Shown here in pieces: positions 14,405 to 52,016 of a stretch of DNA of 64,000 bases. The notes under the pieces are model-generated. The model was not told the DNA's origin. It worked only from the letters and a program-made list of their open reading frames with translations, and did not search any database. Source of the stretch: a phage; the sequence record PZ445487.1, one strand, 5' to 3'. The position numbers and the translations under genes were made by a program. Numbering within the stretch: position 1 is the first letter of the stretch; every line of letters begins with the position of its first letter.

Positions 14405-15133
14405 ATGAACGCACAAATCTACGATGTCCTTTCCTCTGGTAACGCATTTAGCAATCCGCTTCCGTCCCTCTCCGGTCCCTCACAGGATTTAATCACCAGT
14501 GGTAGTACCAATATACCATTGATAACTACCAACGCGACTCCGGAGATGCAGGCGGCTATGTCAGCAGGTGGACTAACACCAGAAAAACTCACAGCAGCCA
14601 CCACCATGTATAGCACCGCCAACACGGGGATAACGACACTGAACACATATGGCGACCAAAGTATCAATGACGCGTATTCTCGCATCGGTACTTCCGTGTC
14701 ATACAAATCAGGTTTGAAAAGTATATCACGAGAGCCAAACAATTGTGATTTGATCAACAAGGCTTTTGGTGTTGTTCAGGATTTAGGACGCCAATGGCTG
14801 AATGCTATGGAAGGCGCTCTCCAGACTGTGACTAACAAGATATCGGAATTGTATGACATGATTATGGAAGGTGCCTCAGAAGGGATGGCAAAACTACAGC
14901 AATTGGCTGCTGAAGTAACAGGACATATCAATGAGGCAATAACCGCCGTCAATGGAGTTATAAATGATATCACCGATGGGATAGCTGCAGAACTTGCTCA
15001 TATTGAAAGTATGATCAAAGAATGTCTAAACTTCTCTTTTGCGAATGTTCTTGGAGAATGGGCCAAAGATCTCTGTGCTGGAGGCGTTATTGATAAAATA
15101 GGGACTCCAGAATTAAAAGAGTCCCTGAAATAA
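14405..15133 (+). CDS. Hypothetical protein (242 aa)
   Basis: Ser/Thr/Asn-rich N-terminal part, helical C-terminal part; no assignable motif. Confidence 0.5.
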   Translation: MNAQIYDVLSSGNAFSNPLPSLSGPSQDLITSGSTNIPLITTNATPEMQAAMSAGGLTPEKLTAATTMYSTANTGITTLNTYGDQSINDAYSRIGTSVSYKSGLKSISREPNNCDLINKAFGVVQDLGRQWLNAMEGALQTVTNKISELYDMIMEGASEGMAKLQQLAAEVTGHINEAITAVNGVINDITDGIAAELAHIESMIKECLNFSFANVLGEWAKDLCAGGVIDKIGTPELKESLK

Positions 15134-15787
15134 TCAATGTCTAGCGGGGAGAACTCCCACTGGTTCGATACCTTCCATCACCAGGGAGTTCACCCCAACA
15201 TCACTCATCCGAATCCATACTTTACCGCCTGGTCTTATTTCATAGATGTTCATTTCATTACCTACAGCAGATCCATTAACGAAAACACCCTGAGTGGCAA
15301 TTCGGATCGGAGATTTGGTGTTATTAACTATCTGAAATGATATTGCAACGTCTCTGGTGATTTCTACGTCCCTTGCTTGAGTATTCCTTCTGAGTTTGTC
15401 AAAGAAAGAAGGGTTGAAAGTCGCTATGATGCTATTATTCTGAGAGTAATAAATACTTGCGGATAGATATGGGATCTTTCCTTCGTCACCTTTCCTCAAT
15501 AGGGGAATCGTGGTTTTCCAGTATGGTCTCAGTGACTGGTTGTTATCATCAAAACAACCAACAGCTTGAAGAGTCTGGAAGTTCTGAAAATCAGATACTA
15601 CTTGATTCAGAATATTTTTATTGCATTTATCAATGTCGGCTGAGATGTTAACAGGTATGGTTCTGATTTCAGGATCCCAGAGGTCGGTTACAGAAATGAC
15701 GGACGTGACAAAGATACGGCAACTTGTGAGTGCAAGCACCATTATCATCGTCATGATCCATTTTCTGAATCCGCGTGTCAGGAACAC
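15134..15787 (-). CDS. Putative lipoprotein encoded on the opposite strand (about 217 aa)
   Basis: Minus-strand ORF converging on 14405..15133. GTG start chosen because ggaga lies 8 nt upstream and it gives a signal peptide with RK n-region, hydrophobic core and lipobox LTSC. Confidence 0.45.
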   Translation of the reverse strand: MFLTRGFRKWIMTMIMVLALTSCRIFVTSVISVTDLWDPEIRTIPVNISADIDKCNKNILNQVVSDFQNFQTLQAVGCFDDNNQSLRPYWKTTIPLLRKGDEGKIPYLSASIYYSQNNSIIATFNPSFFDKLRRNTQARDVEITRDVAISFQIVNNTKSPIRIATQGVFVNGSAVGNEMNIYEIRPGGKVWIRMSDVGVNSLVMEGIEPVGVLPARH

Positions 15788-15817
15788 TAAAACGTTCTCC
15801 ACAGCAAAGGTGCTAAC

Positions 15818-16315
15818 ATGACAGGTGTACAATTCAAAAACGAAAATCCTAATTTCGCGGCTTCCGATAAATGGCGCTTAACTATCGGAGACCTGATATT
15901 GCTTACTCGTTCAATACATGACTTCAGTATTCCTGGAGTGTATTCTGAAGGTATCGAGGGTCCATCCCCTGGCGATGTGCTCAACTCCATACCTTCAGAA
16001 CGTCTCACGTATGACCCCATCGTATTTACGTTCGTTATCGATGAGAGTTGGTACAACTGGGAACAGATTTACAATTGGATTGCGTCTAATGCTGGATCTG
16101 ATTTAGCTGTTAGCCGCGACATCACCATCGACCTTCTTGATAACATGAATCGACCTATTGGTCTACAATTGTTGTTGGAAGAAGCCCGTCCCACAGCTTT
16201 GGATAACGTATTGGTGGATGTGGATGCTGCGGTTCCCCAACTGGTCACGACTGTTACGTTCAAATATTTGAAACTGACTCCGACTCGCGTCACCCGCGAA
16301 ATTGATAAACAATAA
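15818..16315 (+). CDS. Hypothetical protein (165 aa)
   Basis: ORF with no recognisable motif. Confidence 0.45.
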   Translation: MTGVQFKNENPNFAASDKWRLTIGDLILLTRSIHDFSIPGVYSEGIEGPSPGDVLNSIPSERLTYDPIVFTFVIDESWYNWEQIYNWIASNAGSDLAVSRDITIDLLDNMNRPIGLQLLLEEARPTALDNVLVDVDAAVPQLVTTVTFKYLKLTPTRVTREIDKQ

Positions 16316-34144: not shown

Positions 34145-34834
34145 ATGAAACGTTTAATCATCGGGGTTGTGCTGGCTGGTCTGGCACTTCCTGCCACCGC
34201 CAAGCTGAATTCCACGGGTGAAAAACTGTGGTCTGATCTTTCCTACTGTGCTGGGTTCTCCCAAGCCGTCGCTATAGACAAAACTGGTTCCATAGAGAAC
34301 TTTGCTGAACTCTGGACCACAGGTAATGTCACAGATGCCGTTGTAAATGCTGGTATTGAGTTTAATCGATATAAGCAAGGCGCGTTCAACCTGAAAGGAT
34401 ATATGAACGACAAAGAATTTAACCGAGGAGGCATGGAGGCGAGCGATCTTATTATGACTGGTCGTATGGGCACACAAGGACGAATGACCGTAAGACAGTG
34501 CCGTTCTCTTCCTTCTCCAGCATTACAAAAAGGTGTGCAGGTTGGCCGACGTCAGCTGGATCTCATCAATGATGGCAACCAATGTATCCGAGTATTTGAA
34601 TACAGTGCTGATCAAGAATCAGATCGACGTTTGAAAAAGGAATGGCGGACTCGCGCCCTTGGCCTGAGAGCATGGCTGGTGGAAAATGATCATTATTATG
34701 AAGACCGTGTTCAGAATGGTTTGAAAGATCTTTCCACTAATTTGTCTGTCAATCTTGATGATCCCAGGCTTGCCCGTGAACTCAAGCAAACAAGAATTGA
34801 CTGTGATAATATGATGAAGGAGAACGAAAGATGA
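34145..34834 (+). CDS. Secreted/periplasmic hypothetical protein
   Basis: SD aaggag; N-terminal signal peptide MKRLIIGVVLAGLALPATA. Confidence 0.5.
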   Translation: MKRLIIGVVLAGLALPATAKLNSTGEKLWSDLSYCAGFSQAVAIDKTGSIENFAELWTTGNVTDAVVNAGIEFNRYKQGAFNLKGYMNDKEFNRGGMEASDLIMTGRMGTQGRMTVRQCRSLPSPALQKGVQVGRRQLDLINDGNQCIRVFEYSADQESDRRLKKEWRTRALGLRAWLVENDHYYEDRVQNGLKDLSTNLSVNLDDPRLARELKQTRIDCDNMMKENER

Positions 34835-35151
34835 GAAACATAATATTCTTGTTATTCTTTTCTATGTTGGCATCATTCCAAGTTGTGGCAACTCCGGCTA
34901 GCAAATTGAATATGTGTGCGGCCTGGTTGTCTACTTATCAACAATTTCACCCTGATGATAAAGATACATCCATCCTTTTATCAGATTATGAAGGTGAGTT
35001 GAAACGCCTTGATCTCTACAGCGTGGATCAAATAGAGAATGCTTTGGATTTGCCAATGATGGAGTCCGCTGCCGACAATAGCAAACAGACGATCAAAGAT
35101 CTGACTATGTGTCGGGAAATAGCGACTAATTTCGTTGGAAATCAAAGATAA
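34831..35151 (+). CDS. Small secreted hypothetical protein
   Basis: ATGA overlap with the preceding gene; signal peptide MRNIIFLLFFSMLASFQVVA. Confidence 0.45.
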   Translation: MRNIIFLLFFSMLASFQVVATPASKLNMCAAWLSTYQQFHPDDKDTSILLSDYEGELKRLDLYSVDQIENALDLPMMESAADNSKQTIKDLTMCREIATNFVGNQR

Positions 35152-36720: not shown

Positions 36721-37008
36721 ATGTCCGGCGTATGGTGTGATGTATTGTTGGTAAGATTTTCAAACGGGATGGATAATCAGATCATTTCATTCTTTTATCC
36801 TGTTCCCTTTTCTTCTATGGGTCTGACTGTCAAGCGCGTTCTTGACATAGAAGAAAAACTCAACACGATGCCGTATATGGCGCGACCACACGTGCTGGGT
36901 TGTGAACTGTTAAACGAAATGATGATTGACGAGAATCTTGTTGAAACAATTATCACGCGTGAACAGATGAAAACCATACTGTCTCAGGGAGAACCCCATG
37001 TCGAATAA
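36721..37008 (+). CDS. Hypothetical protein (95 aa)
   Basis: ATG immediately after the preceding stop. Confidence 0.4.
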   Translation: MSGVWCDVLLVRFSNGMDNQIISFFYPVPFSSMGLTVKRVLDIEEKLNTMPYMARPHVLGCELLNEMMIDENLVETIITREQMKTILSQGEPHVE

Positions 37009-37318
37009 ACCGTTTGAACTTAAATTTCGCGTTTGGCATATTCCCCAGGTTCCTGGGATCGCTTTTCATGTTGAGGTTCCAACATTTGAAGAAGCGCAGC
37101 GCCTGAAGAATACTCTGGCTGATTATGATTTGTTCCAGTTCAACAACAATATCAAGCCGGATTATTGTAATGCTTCGGGCATTCAGATTTATCAACATGA
37201 TCTGACTGAAGAAGATCTAAATGATATGGGACTGGATGATCGTTGGGTTGATATCGAAGATATTGACGAACTCAACGATTATTTTGATCATCTGCGTAGC
37301 ACAGGGTGGGAAATATGA
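36998..37318 (+). CDS. Hypothetical acidic protein (106 aa)
   Basis: ORF overlapping neighbouring gene ends; Asp/Glu-rich C-terminus. Confidence 0.45.
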   Translation: MSNKPFELKFRVWHIPQVPGIAFHVEVPTFEEAQRLKNTLADYDLFQFNNNIKPDYCNASGIQIYQHDLTEEDLNDMGLDDRWVDIEDIDELNDYFDHLRSTGWEI

Positions 37319-37524
37319 TCGGGTTAATCCGTTATCTGTTCATATTCGTAATAACAACATTCATTTTATTTTTCTTTTTCAAATACTTGAAAGAGACTAA
37401 AATCTACCGGAGTAAACGTTGGCGCAAACGGGTGAGGGTAACTTTCCTACTGCTGATTTCTTCGGTTACAATAACTGCACTCACATTGGGTGCTTATATT
37501 TACATTTTTGAAGGAGTACATTGA
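37315..37524 (+). CDS. Small membrane protein (69 aa, two predicted TM segments)
   Basis: Hydrophobic stretches LIRYLFIFVITTFILFFFF and FLLLISSVTITALTLGAYIYIF; overlaps the downstream SPFH gene start. Confidence 0.4.
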   Translation: MIGLIRYLFIFVITTFILFFFFKYLKETKIYRSKRWRKRVRVTFLLLISSVTITALTLGAYIYIFEGVH

Positions 37525-38315
37525 TGTTCAAGAAACTGGTATTTGGCGCAATTATGGTCCTAGCGGCAAGCCTTCTTTCAGGCTGCGGCGGTGTTATCGA
37601 TGAAGGAAACGTCGGTGTTCGAACCCAATGGGGTGAAGTGGACATGAACCCTGTAACCGCAGGTATCTACACCAGTTTCGTTTCAAGTGTAGATGTCTAT
37701 ACGACTAAAGAAGCCGTCGTGAGTCTGACGAAAATGACGCCAAAGGCCAAAGACAACCTGACCTTGGAAGATCTGGATGTGGACGTTTATTACACACCGA
37801 ACGTCGCGAAGGTTCCTTGGTTCCATACCAAATTTGCAGGTCAGAGCGCTGAACTCGGTGACGGCACGATAGCGGTGGGATTCAACCTGGTTAAAACCGC
37901 CGCAGCATCCTCAACGATGGACGCCGTTTCTTCTTTGGATTCTATGACAATTCACACCCAACGGGCTGAGTTAGAAAAGATGATCAAGGAACGCACCCAG
38001 CAGCAATTAGAAACAGCTGCACCTGGCATGTTCACAATCACACGCGTGTTGGTCAAAAAGGCGCTGACAGATCCTTCGATTGAGCAATCTATCCGTGATA
38101 ATGTCATGGCCGACAAACGTTTGGATACAGCAAGAAAGAACGTTGAAATTCGCGACCAAGAAGCCAAGGCGAATCAGAAACTGACGACATCTCTGACACC
38201 TGAATATTTACAACACGAATATAACATGGTGTTGCAATCTTGCGCCAACAGCGGGAAATGTACTCTGATTGTTGATGGTTCAGGCTCAAGTAAAATGCTA
38301 AACGTCGGCAAATAA
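37521..38315 (+). CDS. Lipoprotein with SPFH/band-7-like domain
   Basis: Lipoprotein signal MMFKKLVFGAIMVLAASLLSGC; then IDEGNVGVRTQWGEV, resembling the start of SPFH domains; helical C-terminus. Confidence 0.5.
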   Translation: MMFKKLVFGAIMVLAASLLSGCGGVIDEGNVGVRTQWGEVDMNPVTAGIYTSFVSSVDVYTTKEAVVSLTKMTPKAKDNLTLEDLDVDVYYTPNVAKVPWFHTKFAGQSAELGDGTIAVGFNLVKTAAASSTMDAVSSLDSMTIHTQRAELEKMIKERTQQQLETAAPGMFTITRVLVKKALTDPSIEQSIRDNVMADKRLDTARKNVEIRDQEAKANQKLTTSLTPEYLQHEYNMVLQSCANSGKCTLIVDGSGSSKMLNVGK

Positions 38316-38812: not shown

Positions 38813-40534
38813 GTGACAGCATTTAATCAACACCGAAAGGCGATTGACGCCATAGGCCGTAAGGTTCCTGTGGAAGAAATACAACGCCTTACCAAAGATG
38901 AATTCCCATATGACAAAGCGAACCCAGGCCAGATGGAATGCATCGTCGAAGCCATAGATGCGCTTATCAACAAAAAGGTTAAACATGTCATCATTGAAGC
39001 TCCGACAGGTGTCGGTAAATCTTTGATTGGCACTACCATTCATAAAGTGATTCGCCATCTAGTTTTACAGGCTGATCCTTATGGGCAATTTCGCACTTCT
39101 ATCAGCACCCCGACCAAAGGTCTGCAAGATCAGTATGCTGCTGAAAAGGCGGTGGCGATAGACATCCTAAAAGGCAAGAAGAACTATCGTTGCCACGTAC
39201 ATCCAGATGTGTATTACAATGCTGTCCAATGCCGTATAGCATGCCGTGACGGGCATTGTAGCAAACGCCGCTGTCCTTATGTACAGGCGCGTAATTTGTG
39301 GACGGATATTTCATCATTGCGTTGTACTAATGCTGCCATGATGATCGAAATGTGTACAACCATCTGCATGAAGCCCGAAAACCGTTCCGATATGCTGATC
39401 CTTGACGAGTGCCATAAAATGCCCTCTACGCTCCTAGAGCACACGATCATGGAATACAATACAAAGGCCGTGGAGGGGCTGCGTTCTATCCCTGAGGGCA
39501 AGGAGATCGTCTCTACCATTGGTGATATCGTAGAACGCACCAAGGACTATGTCCTGGGCAAGTTATATTCTTTGTCTGGTGAACTGCATTCAATGTTTGA
39601 AGCCCTCCATCTCAAAGTAGAAAATTTGTTGGAAGTTCTTGAAGAATTGGTCGAAGATGATCGCTTGAGTGAAAGCCAAGTGATGAAACTCGCCGACATT
39701 ATAGATGTCTTGCATAACTTGAGTGATTATTGCGGTATTATGTCACAAACCCAAGCAAGTACATTTATTGTGCAAGATAAGGGGGAAGATTTTATCCGGT
39801 TTAAACCTGTTATGCCTTCTGATGTAAGCGAATTCGGGTTATTCCGAAAAGCCGATTATCACGTTCATATGTCAGCAACGATCTGTGGTATAGATTCATA
39901 TGCTCGTTCATTGGGTATTCGACAGGGGGATTATCATTCCATTCAGATCGGCAACCCTATCCCGATTGAAAACAGAAAAGTCAACTATATGCCCATAGTG
40001 AAGATGACTAACAATATGGGTGACTATGAAATGAAAAGGTTGACGGAATATATTGATGAAATAATCGCGTTCCACCCAGGTCAGTCCGGCATTATCCATA
40101 CAGTGAGTTATGATCGCGCCTTGGCAATACAAAAATTCAGCAAATATCAGAATTTTATCCATGTTCCGCGTACCCGAAAGGCGTTGATGGATATTATGGA
40201 AAATGCTTTTAGAACAAAGTCCCCATGCGTCATTGCCAGTCCGGCTATGGAAGAAGGTTATGATTTCAAAGGGGATTACAGCCGTTTCCAAATACTGATC
40301 AAAGTCCCTTATGATTATCTGGGCGATCCACTGATAGCACATATCAATTCAGTGGATCCGTCGGCATACTTCCGCAATGCAGTACTGCGCATTGTTCAAA
40401 TGTGTGGACGTTCGGTCAGGGGTGTTGATGACTGGGCTGCGACATACATCATTGATTCATCCTTTGAATCTCTTATGATGCGCAACCCAGAATTCTTCCC
40501 AACCTGGTTCACCGATGCAGTGTTTGAGGTTTAA
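38813..40534 (+). CDS. DinG/XPD-family (Rad3-like) FeS helicase
   Basis: GTG start with SD aaggagga; Walker A EAPTGVGKS, DECH box ILDECHK, four Cys between helicase motifs (CHVHPD...C...CRDGHC...RRCPY), motif VI GRSVRG. Confidence 0.7.
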   Translation: MTAFNQHRKAIDAIGRKVPVEEIQRLTKDEFPYDKANPGQMECIVEAIDALINKKVKHVIIEAPTGVGKSLIGTTIHKVIRHLVLQADPYGQFRTSISTPTKGLQDQYAAEKAVAIDILKGKKNYRCHVHPDVYYNAVQCRIACRDGHCSKRRCPYVQARNLWTDISSLRCTNAAMMIEMCTTICMKPENRSDMLILDECHKMPSTLLEHTIMEYNTKAVEGLRSIPEGKEIVSTIGDIVERTKDYVLGKLYSLSGELHSMFEALHLKVENLLEVLEELVEDDRLSESQVMKLADIIDVLHNLSDYCGIMSQTQASTFIVQDKGEDFIRFKPVMPSDVSEFGLFRKADYHVHMSATICGIDSYARSLGIRQGDYHSIQIGNPIPIENRKVNYMPIVKMTNNMGDYEMKRLTEYIDEIIAFHPGQSGIIHTVSYDRALAIQKFSKYQNFIHVPRTRKALMDIMENAFRTKSPCVIASPAMEEGYDFKGDYSRFQILIKVPYDYLGDPLIAHINSVDPSAYFRNAVLRIVQMCGRSVRGVDDWAATYIIDSSFESLMMRNPEFFPTWFTDAVFEV

Positions 40535-41298
40535 TAACCCGCAATAAACGATAAATGGCACTTGATATTTGGTTCAAGTGTCGTTATCGTGATAATCATA
40601 TTGTCCACATCTTGGCTGAAAGATATATTTGCGATCGGTTTGGTTTGAACATGATTATACAGGCTATAAATCAGATCTTCACCACGATAACCGATTTTGC
40701 CATCAGTGTCCTGCCAATGACCGAGGGTAGACTCTCGAGCGTGTACTCGGAATTCGACCATATGAAACAATGCTTTTGGGATGGTCTTCAGTATGCTGGT
40801 CCCAACAACCGGAATATCAATAGAAGAGTCGTTGGAGTTTCCTTCATAAACAGATTCCCAACCAAATATTGGATCACCTCCTGCCACAGGAGTTCTTTTC
40901 CAGTATTGGAATTCTGGGTTGCCCGAAGCGTTCTTTTGTAGGAGGATTACTTCACCGCCTTCAAAATTGGAAGTGTCTATATCGTCCCTTGCTAATAAAT
41001 CTGCCGGAGAACCAATAAATTTCCAAGTTTCGCGATCTAAAATAGACTTATAATAATCGGTGAATACGTTGCTGTCGTTAGCTGCATTGATTGCGTCTTT
41101 AAGACCTTCACCTGTGACCATCTCATTAAGTTTTAGCCACATGTTTTTGACAGCTGACGCAGCTGCGACTTGACCTTCAGTCCCACCCGCCGTGTAGTCA
41201 TAAATGATGTCCAGCTTTTGTATGGAATCATTTATAGACAAGAGCAAACGCTCAATTTCTGGGGCGGTCAGACTGAAACGATATGCGCGTTCTGACAT
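40531..41298 (-). CDS. Hypothetical protein (255 aa), opposite strand
   Basis: Minus-strand ORF converging on the helicase gene; SD gagga 7 nt upstream of its ATG. Confidence 0.5.
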   Translation of the reverse strand: MSERAYRFSLTAPEIERLLLSINDSIQKLDIIYDYTAGGTEGQVAAASAVKNMWLKLNEMVTGEGLKDAINAANDSNVFTDYYKSILDRETWKFIGSPADLLARDDIDTSNFEGGEVILLQKNASGNPEFQYWKRTPVAGGDPIFGWESVYEGNSNDSSIDIPVVGTSILKTIPKALFHMVEFRVHARESTLGHWQDTDGKIGYRGEDLIYSLYNHVQTKPIANISFSQDVDNMIITITTLEPNIKCHLSFIAGY

Positions 41299-48621: not shown

Positions 48622-51009
48622 ATGGCCATCCCATCTTTCTTGAACTTTCTTGAAGAGTCTAAACAATTAGACGAAGCGTTTAACTCATCCCCGTATGAAT
48701 TGACATTCGGCAAGAAGAACGCTGGTGACATTTTCTTCACATTTGTTGATGAAGACGAAAAAGAATTCCGTATTCAATTCTATACCCCACAAGGTCTAGG
48801 CAAGAATGTTCGCCAAGTCTTTATCGGTCAGAAGCGTGGTTCCACATATCCCGATGCCATCGGTCGTTTCAAGAATCCGATGCGTGTTATCGCATCCATG
48901 ATTGAAGCAACAAAGCAATTCATGGCGACGCCTTTGGGGAAAACCATTGACGGCTTTGCAATTAACTTCTCCAAGAAAGCATTGGAGCGTGGTGTTACCC
49001 TCCTGCCGAAGATTATCCGTCAGTCCGGCCTGAAGCAAAAGCTCAATGTCATGGACCTGACGTATACCCCTATCCCTGATCGTGCATTCGTATGGGTTGT
49101 GCGTAAAGGCAAGGATCCTGCTCAGGTATTCGATGGTCCGAAAATGAAAGGCGTGACTTGGGACGACCCAGACAAAGTCGGTGACGTTCCTGACCAGGCT
49201 GCTCGTGACGCCGCACTACAAGGTGACATGGATGATTTGAGCCAATCCATAAATGCCGATTCTCGCTGGATTCTGACCAAAGCTGATCATACTCAGCCTA
49301 TGCTGGTCTGGTCTGGTAAAGAACGTGGGCGGACTATTACCGCCAATATCGCACCTCACGCGAATGAACCTGGTGTGTATGCTGGTAGTATCATGAACGA
49401 GAAACGGATCCGCGCTCAATCCCCAGACGCTATTGTACGCCAACTGGGATTACCGCAGATCCCTGTGAATATTCTGAATGATTTCACCAAGCAGTCGTCC
49501 ATCTTCTGGAAAGAGATGACGGGGGATTCTGGAAAAATAGACATGCAGACTTTGCCAAAAACAGGATCTGTGGATGACTTACGAAATCAGGGTTATATTG
49601 CTCGCCTTCTGGGGATTGTAGACACATATGCTCCACAACAGGTCGGTATGTATGCAGGTGAGAAACTAACACGAATCGGCGCGGGCAAATATCGTACTTC
49701 GGGTGGTCTGGACATTCAGGTTTATTTCTGGGGAATTGTCAACGGAAAACTTTCTGTAGAAGTGGTTTCTGATTTATCTGGCAATGAACAGCTGATGCTG
49801 GAAGGCGACGTGAAAAACGCTGCTTTTGAAATCGTCAGTGCGATATCCCGTGCTGCTGATTCTCAGTTCAACGGTGAAGTGGAATGTCGTGTTGTTCCGA
49901 TCAACGGTGCCCCATACCCGATTCAAAAGGTTTCCCGTTCTCAGGGTTATTCTTATGTCGATTGTATTTCGTTTACTTTGAAGATCGCCGATGCATTGTT
50001 AAATCGATTTACTCTGGGTAAGGCAGTCAAACTCGATCTGATAAAAGAGTTCCCTCGAACGACGTTTATTGTTCGTTATGACTGGCGCAGCAAAGATACT
50101 CTGATGGTCCAGTCTTCTGATGGGAAGACTATCTTCGGCGAAATCAACACAAATTCCAGTGATAACGCTGTCATCACTGCGAACCTGAAAGCCCCAAGCA
50201 ATGCGAAGATATTTGGTGAAACCGTTCATGGGTTCTCTGTGGCTTGGGACTTCCAGTTCCCTGCGGGTAGCCAGCTGCAAGCCGCACGGTTCGTTACGAA
50301 CGTGACTTACGACTTCGATCGTAATAAGGCCAACATCACGACCATGCTGACAGAAAATGGCCGAAATGTAGTCAATAGCAGCGGATATGACATTCAGTTA
50401 TCTGTCAAGTCTGTGCAAGATGCATTGAATGAGACTTCACAACGCCTGAAAGACGCTGCGGCTCAATTGAGCCATCTTGGTTCATCAAACTATAACCCGA
50501 ACAAGCTGTTCCTGAATGATATCACCGTCAGTAAGTTTGGTGCAATTATGTTCCAAGACAAAGATCTGGCACAGTCCAAAAACCGCACGGCAGTCATTGA
50601 TGCTTTGGCTCGGGCGAAAGATCAGGTCGCTGGTGGTAAGAATGCAGGCGATCTGGCCACCTATGCCGGATCCATTCGTGATAGCGCTCCTAATGGACGA
50701 GATCTGGATTGGCAGGTATACACAGCCAGTAATGGTACAGTTCTGAATGTTGCCTGGGATATCACTTTCCGTCGCAATACGACCGAAGGAGCATATCGTG
50801 AATTCAAGGATCAGATCAACCGTGCCAACCAATACCTGCAAACGGTATACAACGACGCGAAATCTAAAGGCTATAATCCTACCGAGCCAAATCTCATGAC
50901 TCTTGAACGCGCTCGCCAATCCGACGAATGGGCTATGAGTAATGGTGATAGTGCATACAGTGAATATGAACAATCGCTGGGTGGTAATCTTCAGATTAGT
51001 CTGAAATAA
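48622..51009 (+). CDS. Large hypothetical protein (795 aa)
   Basis: Long ORF with RBS aggaga; contains the motif SPDAIVRQLGLPQIPVNIL also found at the C-terminus of the next gene product. Confidence 0.55.
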   Translation: MAIPSFLNFLEESKQLDEAFNSSPYELTFGKKNAGDIFFTFVDEDEKEFRIQFYTPQGLGKNVRQVFIGQKRGSTYPDAIGRFKNPMRVIASMIEATKQFMATPLGKTIDGFAINFSKKALERGVTLLPKIIRQSGLKQKLNVMDLTYTPIPDRAFVWVVRKGKDPAQVFDGPKMKGVTWDDPDKVGDVPDQAARDAALQGDMDDLSQSINADSRWILTKADHTQPMLVWSGKERGRTITANIAPHANEPGVYAGSIMNEKRIRAQSPDAIVRQLGLPQIPVNILNDFTKQSSIFWKEMTGDSGKIDMQTLPKTGSVDDLRNQGYIARLLGIVDTYAPQQVGMYAGEKLTRIGAGKYRTSGGLDIQVYFWGIVNGKLSVEVVSDLSGNEQLMLEGDVKNAAFEIVSAISRAADSQFNGEVECRVVPINGAPYPIQKVSRSQGYSYVDCISFTLKIADALLNRFTLGKAVKLDLIKEFPRTTFIVRYDWRSKDTLMVQSSDGKTIFGEINTNSSDNAVITANLKAPSNAKIFGETVHGFSVAWDFQFPAGSQLQAARFVTNVTYDFDRNKANITTMLTENGRNVVNSSGYDIQLSVKSVQDALNETSQRLKDAAAQLSHLGSSNYNPNKLFLNDITVSKFGAIMFQDKDLAQSKNRTAVIDALARAKDQVAGGKNAGDLATYAGSIRDSAPNGRDLDWQVYTASNGTVLNVAWDITFRRNTTEGAYREFKDQINRANQYLQTVYNDAKSKGYNPTEPNLMTLERARQSDEWAMSNGDSAYSEYEQSLGGNLQISLK

Positions 51010-51013
51010 GTCA

Positions 51014-51035
51014 TAGCCCCTTCGGGGGCTAAATA
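51014..51035 (+). promoter_or_regulatory. Hairpin followed by late-promoter-like CTAAATA
   Basis: tagcccc-ttcg-ggggcta then ctaaata about 25 nt upstream of the ATG at 51061. Confidence 0.35.
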
Positions 51036-51060
51036 CATCAAAATCCTTAGGAGATCCACG

Positions 51061-51606
51061 ATGAAACCGTTTATCGAATATTTTAAAGAACAAGCTCAAC
51101 AACCGCAAACTCATGGCGGCATACAAGGCAAAAGTGTAACCATCACCAAACAGGCCGACGGAACCCAATGGTGTACTGGTGCCACCGTGACCCAGATCAC
51201 TCCAGATAATCAGGCCGACATCTATAATCTGGAATTGACTAATGGCAACACCATCAAAGTGAAGCTAACTCCAAACCAGACCCACGGCATTACCCAAGGC
51301 CAAGAAGTTGTTGCCGTCCATGATGGTTTTGAATTTTTCTTCGGCAAGTCAGCTGACAAAGGTCAGGTTACTGAAGCGGAAGGCTGGCGTTTCGTCGGTG
51401 ACCGTGGCGCTCATATTCTGATGTATGACGCAAAAGTTGGCGGTGCCTCCACTATCCTTCGCAGTCCAACAGATCGAACCAAATTTGTTGGTGGTCTCAT
51501 CAACGGTAGAAAAATTTTGGGTAATTCCCCAGAAGAACTGGCGGCAAAATTAGGTCTTCCAAAAATTCCTGATAATTTATTAAAATCGTTTTTTGGTAAA
51601 AAGTGA
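51061..51606 (+). CDS. Hypothetical protein (181 aa)
   Basis: RBS aggaga; C-terminus SPEELAAKLGLPKIPDNLLKSFF shares a motif with the preceding large protein. Confidence 0.5.
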   Translation: MKPFIEYFKEQAQQPQTHGGIQGKSVTITKQADGTQWCTGATVTQITPDNQADIYNLELTNGNTIKVKLTPNQTHGITQGQEVVAVHDGFEFFFGKSADKGQVTEAEGWRFVGDRGAHILMYDAKVGGASTILRSPTDRTKFVGGLINGRKILGNSPEELAAKLGLPKIPDNLLKSFFGKK

Positions 51607-51619
51607 TTATAAAATACAA

Positions 51620-51646
51620 TCCCCCTAAATACAGGGGGATTTTCTT
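51620..51646 (+). terminator. Terminator hairpin with CTAAATA in its loop
   Basis: tccccct-aaatac-aggggga followed by ttttcttttt. Confidence 0.5.
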
Positions 51647-51662
51647 TTTAGGGGTAAATATC

Positions 51663-52016
51663 ATGGTCAATGCGAGTATATTCATCAACCGTGGACTGCT
51701 TGCTATAGCCCACTCCCATGCCCTCCACTTCGTTACAACGTCCTATGCCAAGCACAAGGCACTCGGGGAGTTCTACGGGGAACTGGAGGACTTGCTGGAT
51801 ACCTTCACAGAGGCATATATCGGCGCGGGTGGTGTATATGTCCCAGGGTTTGAGAATATTAAACTGTACAACCCAGATCCTATATCGTATGTCAACAGTG
51901 TCGTTATCGACGTAAACGGAATTTATGGTCAATGCGACAGCCATCTTCAAAATACGCTTGATGAAATCAAAACTTTGTGCTATCAAACGATTTACAAACT
52001 GAAGCAATTGTCCTAA
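51663..52016 (+). CDS. Hypothetical protein (117 aa)
   Basis: Internal ATG of track ORF 51603..52016, chosen because the upstream part overlaps the terminator hairpin. Confidence 0.4.
   Translation: MVNASIFINRGLLAIAHSHALHFVTTSYAKHKALGEFYGELEDLLDTFTEAYIGAGGVYVPGFENIKLYNPDPISYVNSVVIDVNGIYGQCDSHLQNTLDEIKTLCYQTIYKLKQLS

What the first reader, a model, noticed from the sequence alone, without database searches (positions are those of the whole stretch)
15134..15787. Opposite-strand lipoprotein gene embedded among forward-strand genes
This is one of only a few minus-strand genes in 64 kb. It converges on the neighbouring gene with overlapping stops and encodes a protein with a lipoprotein signal. 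Isolated opposite-strand membrane proteins in phages are often superinfection-exclusion or immunity factors.
Basis: partly seen in the sequence, partly recalled or inferred. Interest (0 to 1): 0.5.

Follow-up and report, generated by a model that had tools for sequence, protein, structure and literature searches.

The report
Conserved phage outer-membrane lipoprotein, function untested
This is a real, strongly conserved gene of phage CBA120 for an exported lipoprotein of unknown function (Pfam DUF7424); relatives sit next to the repressor gene in many prophages, so its most likely job is to block entry of further phages, but nobody has tested this.

Summary
The window is Escherichia phage CBA120 (Kuttervirus, Ackermannviridae). 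The finding is annotated orf170 (YP_004957834.1, 217 aa), minus strand, 15134-15787.

- **Real gene:** dN/dS is 0.04. It is intact in 346 of 349 phage records. It is present in essentially every Ackermannviridae genome, always divergent from the gp3 tail-completion gene.
- **Lipoprotein signal:** the n-region, h-region and lipobox LTS|C23, with R/K at +2, persist down to 18-25% identity. So do two further cysteines.
- **Family and fold:** the protein is Pfam DUF7424. Its fold matches no solved structure, and it is absent from the LIMEstone1 virion proteome.
- **New here:** DUF7424 is a large family of about 220-aa lipoproteins. Of 12 non-Ackermannviridae contexts, 6 lie directly downstream of a prophage repressor, 2 are extra genes in myovirus tail modules, and none is beside recognisable lysis genes.

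This supports, indirectly, a superinfection-exclusion ("lytic conversion") role resembling T5 Llp, Cor or Ltp in function only; there is no homology.

Caveats: it is a core gene, not an accessory one. Vibrio relatives carry a late-promoter-like motif upstream. No target is known. Confidence is about 0.45.

The parts
15134..15787 (-). CDS orf170 (CBA120_gp131, YP_004957834.1): 217-aa lipoprotein precursor, GTG start, TGA stop at 15136-15134
   Evidence: Pfam DUF7424 at 205 bits against a cutoff of 27. dN/dS 0.043.
15797..15800 (-). Shine-Dalgarno GGAG, 9 nt upstream of the GTG start
   Evidence: read from the sequence. The Maynard annotators also mark a ribosome-binding site at the equivalent place.
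15722..15787 (-). Signal peptide, residues 1-22: n-region with R5, R8, K9; h-region WIMTMIMVLAL
   Evidence: the only hydrophobic segment in the protein. The architecture is conserved in all homologues.
15719..15730 (-). Lipobox L20-T21-S22-C23. Cys23 (15721-15719) is the predicted lipidated first residue of the mature protein; the +2 residue is Arg.
   Evidence: L-[TV]-S-C in the enterobacterial clade; IGGC, LSSC, ISSC and LMSC in Serratia and Vibrio relatives. C23 is invariant in alignments A1 and A2.
15137..15721 (-). Mature DUF7424 domain: 195 aa, 21.9 kDa, alpha/beta fold, with a beta-strand starting 2 residues after the lipid Cys
   Evidence: Pfam match to residues 26-216. AF2 model with pLDDT 80.5 and pTM 0.77. 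No C-terminal transmembrane segment.
15623..15625 (-). Invariant Cys55, the putative disulfide partner of Cys78
   Evidence: invariant in A1, A2 and the prophage-type alignment A3. The disulfide itself is inferred, not shown.
15554..15556 (-). Invariant Cys78
14405..15133 (+). Convergent neighbour orf171 (DUF7217). Its stop codon abuts the stop codon of orf170.
   Evidence: The LIMEstone1 homologue ORF129 is a confirmed virion protein.
15818..16315 (+). Divergent neighbour gp3 (tail completion and sheath stabiliser). Its start lies 30 nt from the orf170 start. This pairing is conserved across the whole family.
15785..15793 (+). Weak late-promoter-like element CACTAAAAC, 33 nt upstream of gp3. 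Its CAC is the reverse complement of the orf170 GTG start codon.
   Evidence: It has two mismatches to the CACTAAATA core and is not conserved in LIMEstone1. It is a candidate only.

Best explanation
[quoted passage not shown] Its compact 195-aa DUF7424 domain would be held close to the membrane in the periplasm. My best reading is that it acts there on a host envelope component to block a step in phage entry: receptor use, tail penetration or DNA passage. That would make it a superinfection-exclusion or 'lytic conversion' factor.

In prophages, relatives would be made together with the repressor and protect the lysogen. In the obligately lytic Ackermannviridae, the protein would protect the infected cell, and above all the progeny, from wasteful adsorption or injection into infected cells and lysis debris.

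Shown here:
- the gene is real and under strong purifying selection;
- the lipoprotein signal and three cysteines are conserved across the family;
- it is a core gene in fixed synteny;
- homologues lie in prophage immunity regions.

Inferred, not shown:
- lipidation and outer-membrane sorting (from the lipobox and the R/K at +2);
- the Cys55-Cys78 disulfide;
- the exclusion activity itself, its target, and the time of expression.
For: - **Export signal.** A canonical lipoprotein signal and lipobox are invariant from Kuttervirus to Vibrio phages at 18-25% identity. The +2 residue is R or K, not the Asp that retains lipoproteins in the inner membrane. Two further invariant cysteines fit an oxidising, periplasmic location.
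- **Not a virion protein.** In LIMEstone1 both flanking genes (ORF127 gp3 and ORF129) encode confirmed virion proteins. The homologue between them, ORF128, was not detected (PMC3296691).
- **A large lipoprotein family.** A profile search of 1.8 billion representatives gave 249 clusters. They are nearly all 190-240 aa; 136 of the 150 listed proteins matched a loose lipobox pattern within their first 70 residues, for most at the signal-peptide Cys. All 10 that were scanned are DUF7424.
- **Genomic context outside Ackermannviridae.** Six of 12 contexts lie directly downstream of a prophage repressor on the same strand: Aeromonas, Haemophilus, Pasteurellaceae and Gallibacterium P2/HP1-like prophages, a Paracandidimonas lambdoid prophage, and a TARA phage contig. 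Two are extra genes in myovirus tail modules. Three are in islands or prophage remnants with toxin-antitoxin or defence-like genes. None is next to a recognisable lysis gene.
- **Precedent.** The repressor/integrase position is where the exclusion lipoprotein Ltp of phage TP-J34 lies (PMC3952083). An outer-membrane lipoprotein with an internal disulfide that blocks a receptor from the periplasmic side is established for T5 Llp (PMC9586334).
- **Evolutionary rate.** The protein diverges faster than its core neighbours at every distance. Against Serratia phage 3M, for example, it is 35% identical, against 63% for gp3 and 74% for the exonuclease. This is as expected for a host-interface protein.
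Against: - There is no direct functional evidence of any kind.
- From my own knowledge, exclusion genes are usually accessory and variable. Here the gene is a core gene in fixed synteny, found in 349 records against 357 for gp3.
- In Vibrio relatives the gene is preceded at about -40 by the same CTAAATA-type motif that precedes the head and tail genes. This suggests late transcription. From my own knowledge, T5 llp and T4 imm and sp are early genes.
- No promoter could be assigned in the enterobacterial clade.
- The target is unknown. Ackermannviridae adsorb through polysaccharide-degrading tailspikes.
- The prophage clade and the Ackermannviridae clade could have diverged in function.
Confidence: 0.45

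Rival explanations
1. It is an envelope lipoprotein that benefits the phage or lysogen without excluding phages. Possibilities include stabilising or remodelling the outer membrane, a Bor/TraT-like host-fitness or serum-resistance role, interference with an envelope-based host defence or stress response, or control of vesicle or debris formation.
For: The same localisation evidence applies. Genes expressed from prophage immunity regions and extra genes in tail modules include fitness factors as well as exclusion genes; lambda bor and lom are examples from my own knowledge. Core status in a lytic family fits a function needed in every infection better than a competitive one. Some family members lie in islands beside toxin-antitoxin or defence-like genes.
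Against: There is no similarity to Bor, TraT or any other Pfam family. A serum-resistance benefit makes little sense for an obligately lytic phage. The strong bias toward the position just downstream of the repressor (6 of 12) is most typical of exclusion or immunity genes.
Confidence: 0.25
2. It is a lysis-associated outer-membrane lipoprotein: an atypical o-spanin, another outer-membrane disruptor, or a regulator of lysis timing or lysis inhibition, made late in infection.
For: It is an outer-membrane lipoprotein, as o-spanins are. Vibrio relatives carry a late-promoter-like motif upstream. No canonical spanin pair is evident in this window. orf133, annotated 'Rz-like spanin' through phrog_3843, has a signal-peptidase-I-type signal and no lipobox. 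Kutter et al. reported no identified lysis genes and apparent lysis inhibition at high multiplicity (PMC3184105).
Against: The mature protein is a well-folded 195-aa alpha/beta domain with 5% proline. It is not a small proline-rich peptide. It has no C-terminal transmembrane segment, so it is not a u-spanin. No i-spanin-like gene is adjacent. It lies about 40 kb from the endolysin gene. Homologues co-transcribed with prophage repressors would be lethal or pointless as lysis effectors, and none of the 12 contexts is in a lysis cassette.
Confidence: 0.1
3. It is a virion or assembly protein belonging with the neighbouring tail genes gp3 and orf171.
For: It sits between two virion-protein genes, and some prophage homologues lie inside tail modules.
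Against: A conserved Sec/SPase II export signal is incompatible with cytoplasmic virion assembly. The LIMEstone1 virion proteome did not detect it, although both neighbours were detected. It is on the opposite strand.
Confidence: 0.03
4. It is a chance or non-functional ORF lying antisense to a transcribed spacer.
For: No promoter or terminator could be assigned. The ORF is wedged in with 0-nt and 30-nt spacers.
Against: dN/dS is 0.04. The ORF is intact in 346 of 349 records. It matches a Pfam family at E = 1e-60. The lipobox and cysteines are conserved at about 20% identity.
Confidence: 0.01

Closest known systems
T5 Llp and the Cor lipoproteins of T1, phi80 and N15 (superinfection-exclusion outer-membrane lipoproteins)
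   Same: They are phage-encoded lipoproteins anchored in the inner leaflet of the outer membrane, with an internal disulfide. Llp belongs to a lytic phage, acts from the periplasmic side on an outer-membrane protein, and is called a 'lytic conversion' protein (PMC9586334).
   Different: There is no sequence or fold similarity. From my own knowledge, Llp and Cor are far smaller, about 60-80 aa when mature, against 195 aa here. llp lies beside the receptor-binding protein gene and is early. orf170 lies beside gp3 and its timing is unknown or possibly late. The Llp target, FhuA, is known; no target is known here.
Ltp of Streptococcus thermophilus phage TP-J34 (and, from my own knowledge, lactococcal Sie2009-type genes)
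   Same: It is an exclusion lipoprotein encoded in the lysogeny module between the integrase and repressor genes and expressed from the prophage (PMC3952083). This is the position that prophage DUF7424 genes occupy in P2/HP1-like prophages.
   Different: [quoted passage not shown] The sequence and fold are unrelated. The mechanism described in that paper is prevention of DNA injection; nothing is shown for DUF7424.
Pfam DUF7424 (PF24199) / PHROG 3832
   Same: orf170 is a full-length, high-scoring member.
   Different: The family has no assigned function and no literature. The prophage-type members carry an extra conserved 'EDSR(K)PS' motif after the second Cys, which the Ackermannviridae clade lacks.
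Spanins (Rz1-type o-spanin, T1 gp11-type u-spanin)
   Same: They are phage outer-membrane lipoproteins with conserved cysteines.
   Different: orf170 has no adjacent i-spanin gene, no C-terminal transmembrane segment, a large folded domain and no lysis-cassette context. The spanin criteria are from my own knowledge.
T4 Sp (spackle) and Imm
   Same: They are exclusion proteins of a lytic myovirus that act in the envelope against incoming tails or DNA. CBA120 also has a gp5-like tail lysozyme.
   Different: Sp is a soluble periplasmic protein and Imm is an inner-membrane protein. Both are early genes and neither is homologous. These properties are from my own knowledge.

Membership tests
Pfam DUF7424 (PF24199) | Match to the family HMM above the gathering score, over the full domain | tested here: met
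   205.2 bits against a cutoff of 27, E = 1.1e-60; residues 26-216 match model positions 2-195 of 196. Also phrog_3832 at E = 4e-113.
Bacterial lipoprotein (SPase II / Lgt substrate) | Basic n-region, hydrophobic h-region, and a lipobox [LVI][ASTVI][GAS]C with the Cys at about position 15-35 | tested here: met
   MFLTRGFRKWIMTMIMVLALTS|C23 fits a PS51257-type rule written from memory. Conserved across the family.
Bacterial lipoprotein (SPase II / Lgt substrate) | Actual diacylglyceryl modification, globomycin-sensitive cleavage and Lol-dependent outer-membrane sorting | not testable with these tools
   Inferred only, from the lipobox and the non-Asp (R/K) residue at +2.
Llp / Cor exclusion lipoproteins | Sequence or structural homology to Llp or Cor | tested here: not met
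Llp / Cor exclusion lipoproteins | Blocks infection by binding the phage's own outer-membrane receptor | not testable with these tools
   Needs expression and challenge experiments. The irreversible receptor of Ackermannviridae was not identified in the sources I read.
Prophage-encoded superinfection-exclusion genes (functional class) | Located in the lysogeny or immunity module and co-oriented with the repressor | tested here: inconclusive
   Met for 6 of 12 non-Ackermannviridae DUF7424 genes. Not applicable to orf170 itself, because CBA120 has no lysogeny module.
o-spanin (Rz1-like) | Small outer-membrane lipoprotein encoded with, within or next to an i-spanin gene in a lysis cassette | tested here: not met
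   The mature protein is a folded 195-aa domain. Its neighbours are gp3 and a virion protein. The endolysin gene is about 40 kb away.
u-spanin (T1 gp11-like) | N-terminal lipoprotein signal plus a C-terminal transmembrane segment | tested here: not met
   The only hydrophobic segment is the signal peptide. The maximum 19-residue Kyte-Doolittle average near the C-terminus is 1.11.
TraT / lambda Bor lipoproteins | Match to the corresponding Pfam models | tested here: not met
   The Pfam scan at E <= 1 returned only DUF7424.
Known anti-phage defence proteins (PADLOC) | Match to a PADLOC model | tested here: not met
   0 families at E <= 1.

The most novel reading that the evidence does not exclude
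DUF7424 is a large, uncharacterised family of phage-borne outer-membrane lipoproteins that block phage entry from the periplasmic side. It would be used both by temperate phages, which express it with the repressor, and, as a universally retained core gene, by the lytic Ackermannviridae. Its binding partner would then point to the still-unknown envelope component that these mostly contractile-tailed phages need after tailspike-mediated adsorption.
Probability: 0.4. Interest if true: 0.65.

Novelty: new variant of a known kind. Interest (0 to 1): 0.45.

Why it matters
Ackermannviridae (CBA120, ViI, LIMEstone and relatives) are widely used for biocontrol, detection and therapy. About half of their genes have no known function, and the envelope steps after tailspike binding are not understood.

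A core, exported lipoprotein is one of the few phage products that must act on the host envelope. If it is an exclusion factor, three things follow:
- It would define a new and widespread family of such lipoproteins, with 249 clusters at 50% identity, many of them in prophage immunity regions.
- It would give a handle (pull-downs, suppressor mutants) on the unknown secondary receptor or entry route.
- It would matter for designing phage cocktails, because infected or lysogenic cells could exclude related phages.

If it instead turns out to be a lysis or envelope-remodelling factor, it would fill a gap in the poorly defined lysis system of this family.

Tried and rejected
- **Virion proteomics of Sajous1 (PMC10892097).** The paper's 'gp214 tail completion / gp215-217 operon' looked like this locus. 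In GenBank MW021757 those numbers belong to a 795-aa protein and its neighbours, homologous to window 48622-52016, so the data say nothing about orf170.
- **Other libraries.** PADLOC, NCBIfam and a PDB sequence search found nothing.
- **Literature.** There are no papers on DUF7424, and no Kuttervirus or CBA120 transcriptome. The Ackermannviridae review does not mention lipoproteins, exclusion or spanins.
- **Promoter search.** There is no sigma-70-like site directly upstream. The 10-of-12 site 911 nt upstream in CBA120 is not conserved in Maynard, Klebsiella 0507-KN2-1, LIMEstone1 or Serratia 3M. T4's TATAAATA is not enriched. The late-like CTAAATA motif lies upstream of the gene only in the Vibrio clade.
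- **Terminator scan.** It found no more sites than shuffled sequence gives.
- **The search for related loci.** Contexts were obtained through the look-up of encoding contigs instead.
- **Recent acquisition.** Rejected. GC and GC3 match the neighbouring genes, and synteny is family-wide.

Full report
**Identity of the window and the gene.** A 4-kb stretch around the finding is 100% identical to Escherichia phage CBA120 (Kuttervirus, Ackermannviridae). It runs as the reverse complement of NC_016570.1. The finding coincides exactly with annotated orf170 / CBA120_gp131 / YP_004957834.1, a 'hypothetical protein' of 217 aa. Close relatives annotate it as 'putative lipoprotein' or 'conserved hypothetical lipoprotein'. 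It belongs to Pfam DUF7424 (205 bits, E = 1e-60) and PHROG 3832, both of unknown function. No paper mentions DUF7424.

**Checking the observation.**
- The open frame runs 15134..15832 on the minus strand.
- The annotated GTG at 15787 has a GGAG 9 nt upstream. The in-frame ATGs further in would leave a signal peptide with no charged n-region. GTG is also the annotated start in Maynard and LIMEstone1.
- Four of about 84 annotated CDS in the window lie on the minus strand.
- The stop codons of orf171 (15131-15133) and orf170 (15136-15134) abut with no spacer; they do not overlap. The start lies 30 nt from the divergent gp3 start at 15818. The back-to-back stops recur in LIMEstone1 and Klebsiella phage 0507-KN2-1; Maynard has a 1-nt gap.
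- The N-terminus MFLTRGFRKWIMTMIMVLALTS|CR fits a PROSITE-type lipoprotein rule, which I wrote from memory. Only one other ORF in the window passes my stricter lipoprotein filter: the SPFH/Band-7 lipoprotein orf126.

**Is it a real gene?**
- tblastn finds it in 349 phage records, 346 of them near full length.
- The neighbouring core gene gp3 is found in 357 records. The counts per host genus are identical except for Vibrio, 69 against 64.
- dN/dS against Maynard is 0.043, with pS 0.62 and pN 0.055.
- Divergence from gp3 on the opposite strand is conserved in Miltonvirus, Limestonevirus, Taipeivirus, Campanilevirus and unclassified Vibrio phages, at 18-35% protein identity.
- GC and GC3 match the neighbours.
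- It is therefore a core gene of the family and not a recent insert.

**Anatomy of the protein.**
- Across all clades the lipid Cys (C23) is invariant and the +2 residue is R or K. Two further cysteines (C55, C78) are invariant, together with W90, Y113, N155, G176, S195 and G206.
- The signal peptide is the only hydrophobic segment. There is no C-terminal membrane anchor. The mature protein is 195 aa, 21.9 kDa, with 5% proline.
- AlphaFold2 gives a confident alpha/beta domain (pLDDT 80.5, pTM 0.77). Its first beta-strand starts two residues after the lipid Cys, so there is essentially no tether.
- It evolves faster than gp3, UvsY and the exonuclease at every phylogenetic distance.
- From these features I infer an outer-membrane-anchored periplasmic protein stabilised by a disulfide. 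This is not shown.

**Not a virion protein.** In the LIMEstone1 virion proteome both neighbours were detected: ORF127 (gp3) and ORF129 (the orf171 homologue). ORF128, the lipoprotein homologue, was not (PMC3296691).

**The family outside Ackermannviridae.**
- A profile search of 1.8 billion representative proteins found 249 clusters at E <= 1e-3. Almost all are 190-240 aa. Of the 150 listed, 136 matched a loose lipobox pattern within their first 70 residues. For most, this is the signal-peptide Cys followed directly by a strand-like segment.
- All ten that were scanned are DUF7424.
- The closer ones lie on contigs of 130-157 kb and are probably further Ackermannviridae-like phages.
- The rest occur sporadically in Proteobacteria, including Pasteurella, Haemophilus, Gallibacterium, Aeromonas, Alcaligenes, Castellaniella, Halomonas and Enterobacter.
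- They share the three cysteines and the N-D-T and L-S-D-V-S motifs with the phage clade.

I looked at 12 genomic contexts:
- **Six lie directly downstream of, and co-oriented with, a prophage repressor.** These are Aeromonas, Haemophilus, Pasteurellaceae 'Pebbles2' and Gallibacterium P2/HP1-like prophages, a Paracandidimonas lambdoid prophage (where the 129-aa upstream gene is only a putative repressor), and a marine phage contig. In two of them the integrase gene lies further downstream on the same strand.
- **Two are extra genes inside myovirus tail modules:** Pasteurella (E217-like) and Enterobacter (Mu-like).
- **Three are in islands or prophage remnants** with toxin-antitoxin or defence-like genes.
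- **One has no mobile signature**.
- **None is next to a recognisable lysis gene.**

**Interpretation.** A gene co-transcribed with the repressor must be harmless and useful in the lysogen. That position is the classical home of exclusion genes. The exclusion lipoprotein Ltp of TP-J34 lies between int and the repressor (PMC3952083). T5 Llp shows how a disulfide-containing outer-membrane lipoprotein can shut a receptor from the periplasmic side (PMC9586334). I therefore favour an entry-blocking, exclusion or 'lytic conversion' role for orf170, with a confidence of about 0.45. The mechanism is an analogy, not homology.

**What argues against it, and the rivals.**
- The gene is core and syntenic rather than accessory.
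- No target is known.
- In Vibrio relatives a motif sits about 40 nt upstream of the lipoprotein gene: CTAAATATA in D509, TTAAATATA in 207E48.1 and CCTAAGTAA in YC. The same motif precedes the sheath, portal and scaffold genes in D509. The only two minus-strand occurrences in 50 kb sit in front of two isolated minus-strand genes: the lipoprotein gene and the orf123 counterpart.
- In CBA120 the same core, CTAA[ATG]T[AT] (best form CACTAAATA), precedes the head and tail genes. With one mismatch allowed it occurs 13 times on the plus strand and twice on the minus strand. It is not found within 200 nt upstream of orf170.
- Late expression would fit protection of progeny from debris. It also keeps a lysis-related role alive, at about 0.1. 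That reading is weakened by the large folded domain, the lack of an adjacent i-spanin gene or a C-terminal anchor, and above all by the repressor-linked homologues.
- A non-exclusion envelope function, such as membrane remodelling or host fitness, remains plausible at about 0.25.
- Virion or assembly roles and a spurious ORF are effectively excluded.

**Transcriptional geometry.** With 0-nt and 30-nt spacers, the gene's promoter must lie inside gp3 and its terminator inside orf171. Plus-strand transcripts that reach gp3 either cross orf170 in antisense or start at a weak CACTAAAAC element whose CAC is the complement of the orf170 start codon. No conserved sigma-70-like promoter exists upstream. 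Expression timing needs RNA-seq.

**Verdict.** The gene is already annotated, as 'hypothetical' or 'putative lipoprotein', and its family is catalogued as a DUF. What is new is the family-wide picture: a core Ackermannviridae gene related to extra genes in prophage immunity regions. The interest is moderate.

Noticed in passing
window 2213, 5274, 6996, 8214, 17550, 46834, 51623 and others (+ strand): A CTAA[ATG]T[AT] core (best form CACTAAATA) lies 32-49 nt upstream of the sheath, tube, portal, scaffold, major head, uvsW and other genes. With one mismatch allowed it occurs 13 times on the + strand and twice on the - strand. It is a good candidate for the late promoter of ViI-like phages, which Kutter et al. 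2011 said had not been identified. The same motif precedes late genes in Vibrio phage D509 (L024).
   Followed up: partly
window 40531-41298 (-), orf123: This is a second isolated opposite-strand gene (255 aa, phrog_3833, no Pfam match), between the helicase and RNase H genes. A gene of similar size at the same position and orientation in Vibrio phage D509 (hyp32, L024 23928-24671) also has the late-like motif directly upstream. I did not test homology between the two.
   Followed up: partly
window 34831-35151 (+), orf133, annotated 'Rz-like spanin': The product has a signal-peptidase-I-type signal (…FQVVA|TPAS) and no lipobox. The upstream orf135 also looks secreted rather than membrane-anchored. 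The spanin annotation, which comes from phrog_3843, looks doubtful. No canonical spanin pair is evident in this window.
   Followed up: partly
window 36998-38315 (+), orf127 and orf126: The window already carries a Pfam GP17 'superinfection exclusion gene product 17' homologue (orf127). It also carries a second lipoprotein with an SPFH/Band-7 domain (orf126). A small gene, orf127A, separates the two.
   Followed up: partly
window 15785-15793 (+): A weak late-like element, CACTAAAAC, lies 33 nt upstream of gp3 and overlaps the GTG start codon of orf170 on the other strand. It is not conserved in LIMEstone1.
   Followed up: partly
GenBank OR844942.1 ('Enterococcus phage Efm 3-10', 111 kb): This record encodes the lipoprotein and gp3 at 99.5-100% identity to Kuttervirus. 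The host label is almost certainly wrong, or the record is contaminated.
   Followed up: no
PMC10892097 against GenBank MW021757 (L007): The paper's 'gp214 tail completion protein' and its proposed gp214-217 'ferritin entry operon' correspond in GenBank to a 795-aa protein and three small genes. These are homologues of window 48622-52016, not the gp3 locus. Either the function label or the numbering is inconsistent.
   Followed up: partly
loci L011, L012, L014, L017, L022, L028: All six prophages whose tail type could be read from the DUF7424 neighbourhood are contractile-tailed (P2/HP1-like, E217-like, Mu-like), as are the Ackermannviridae. The sample is too small to call this an association.
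   Followed up: no
L016 (Alcaligenes sp. SDU_A2): Here the DUF7424 gene has no phage genes nearby. It lies three called genes away from a TonB-dependent receptor gene. This is anecdotal, but it is worth noting because Llp and Cor target TonB-dependent receptors.
   Followed up: no
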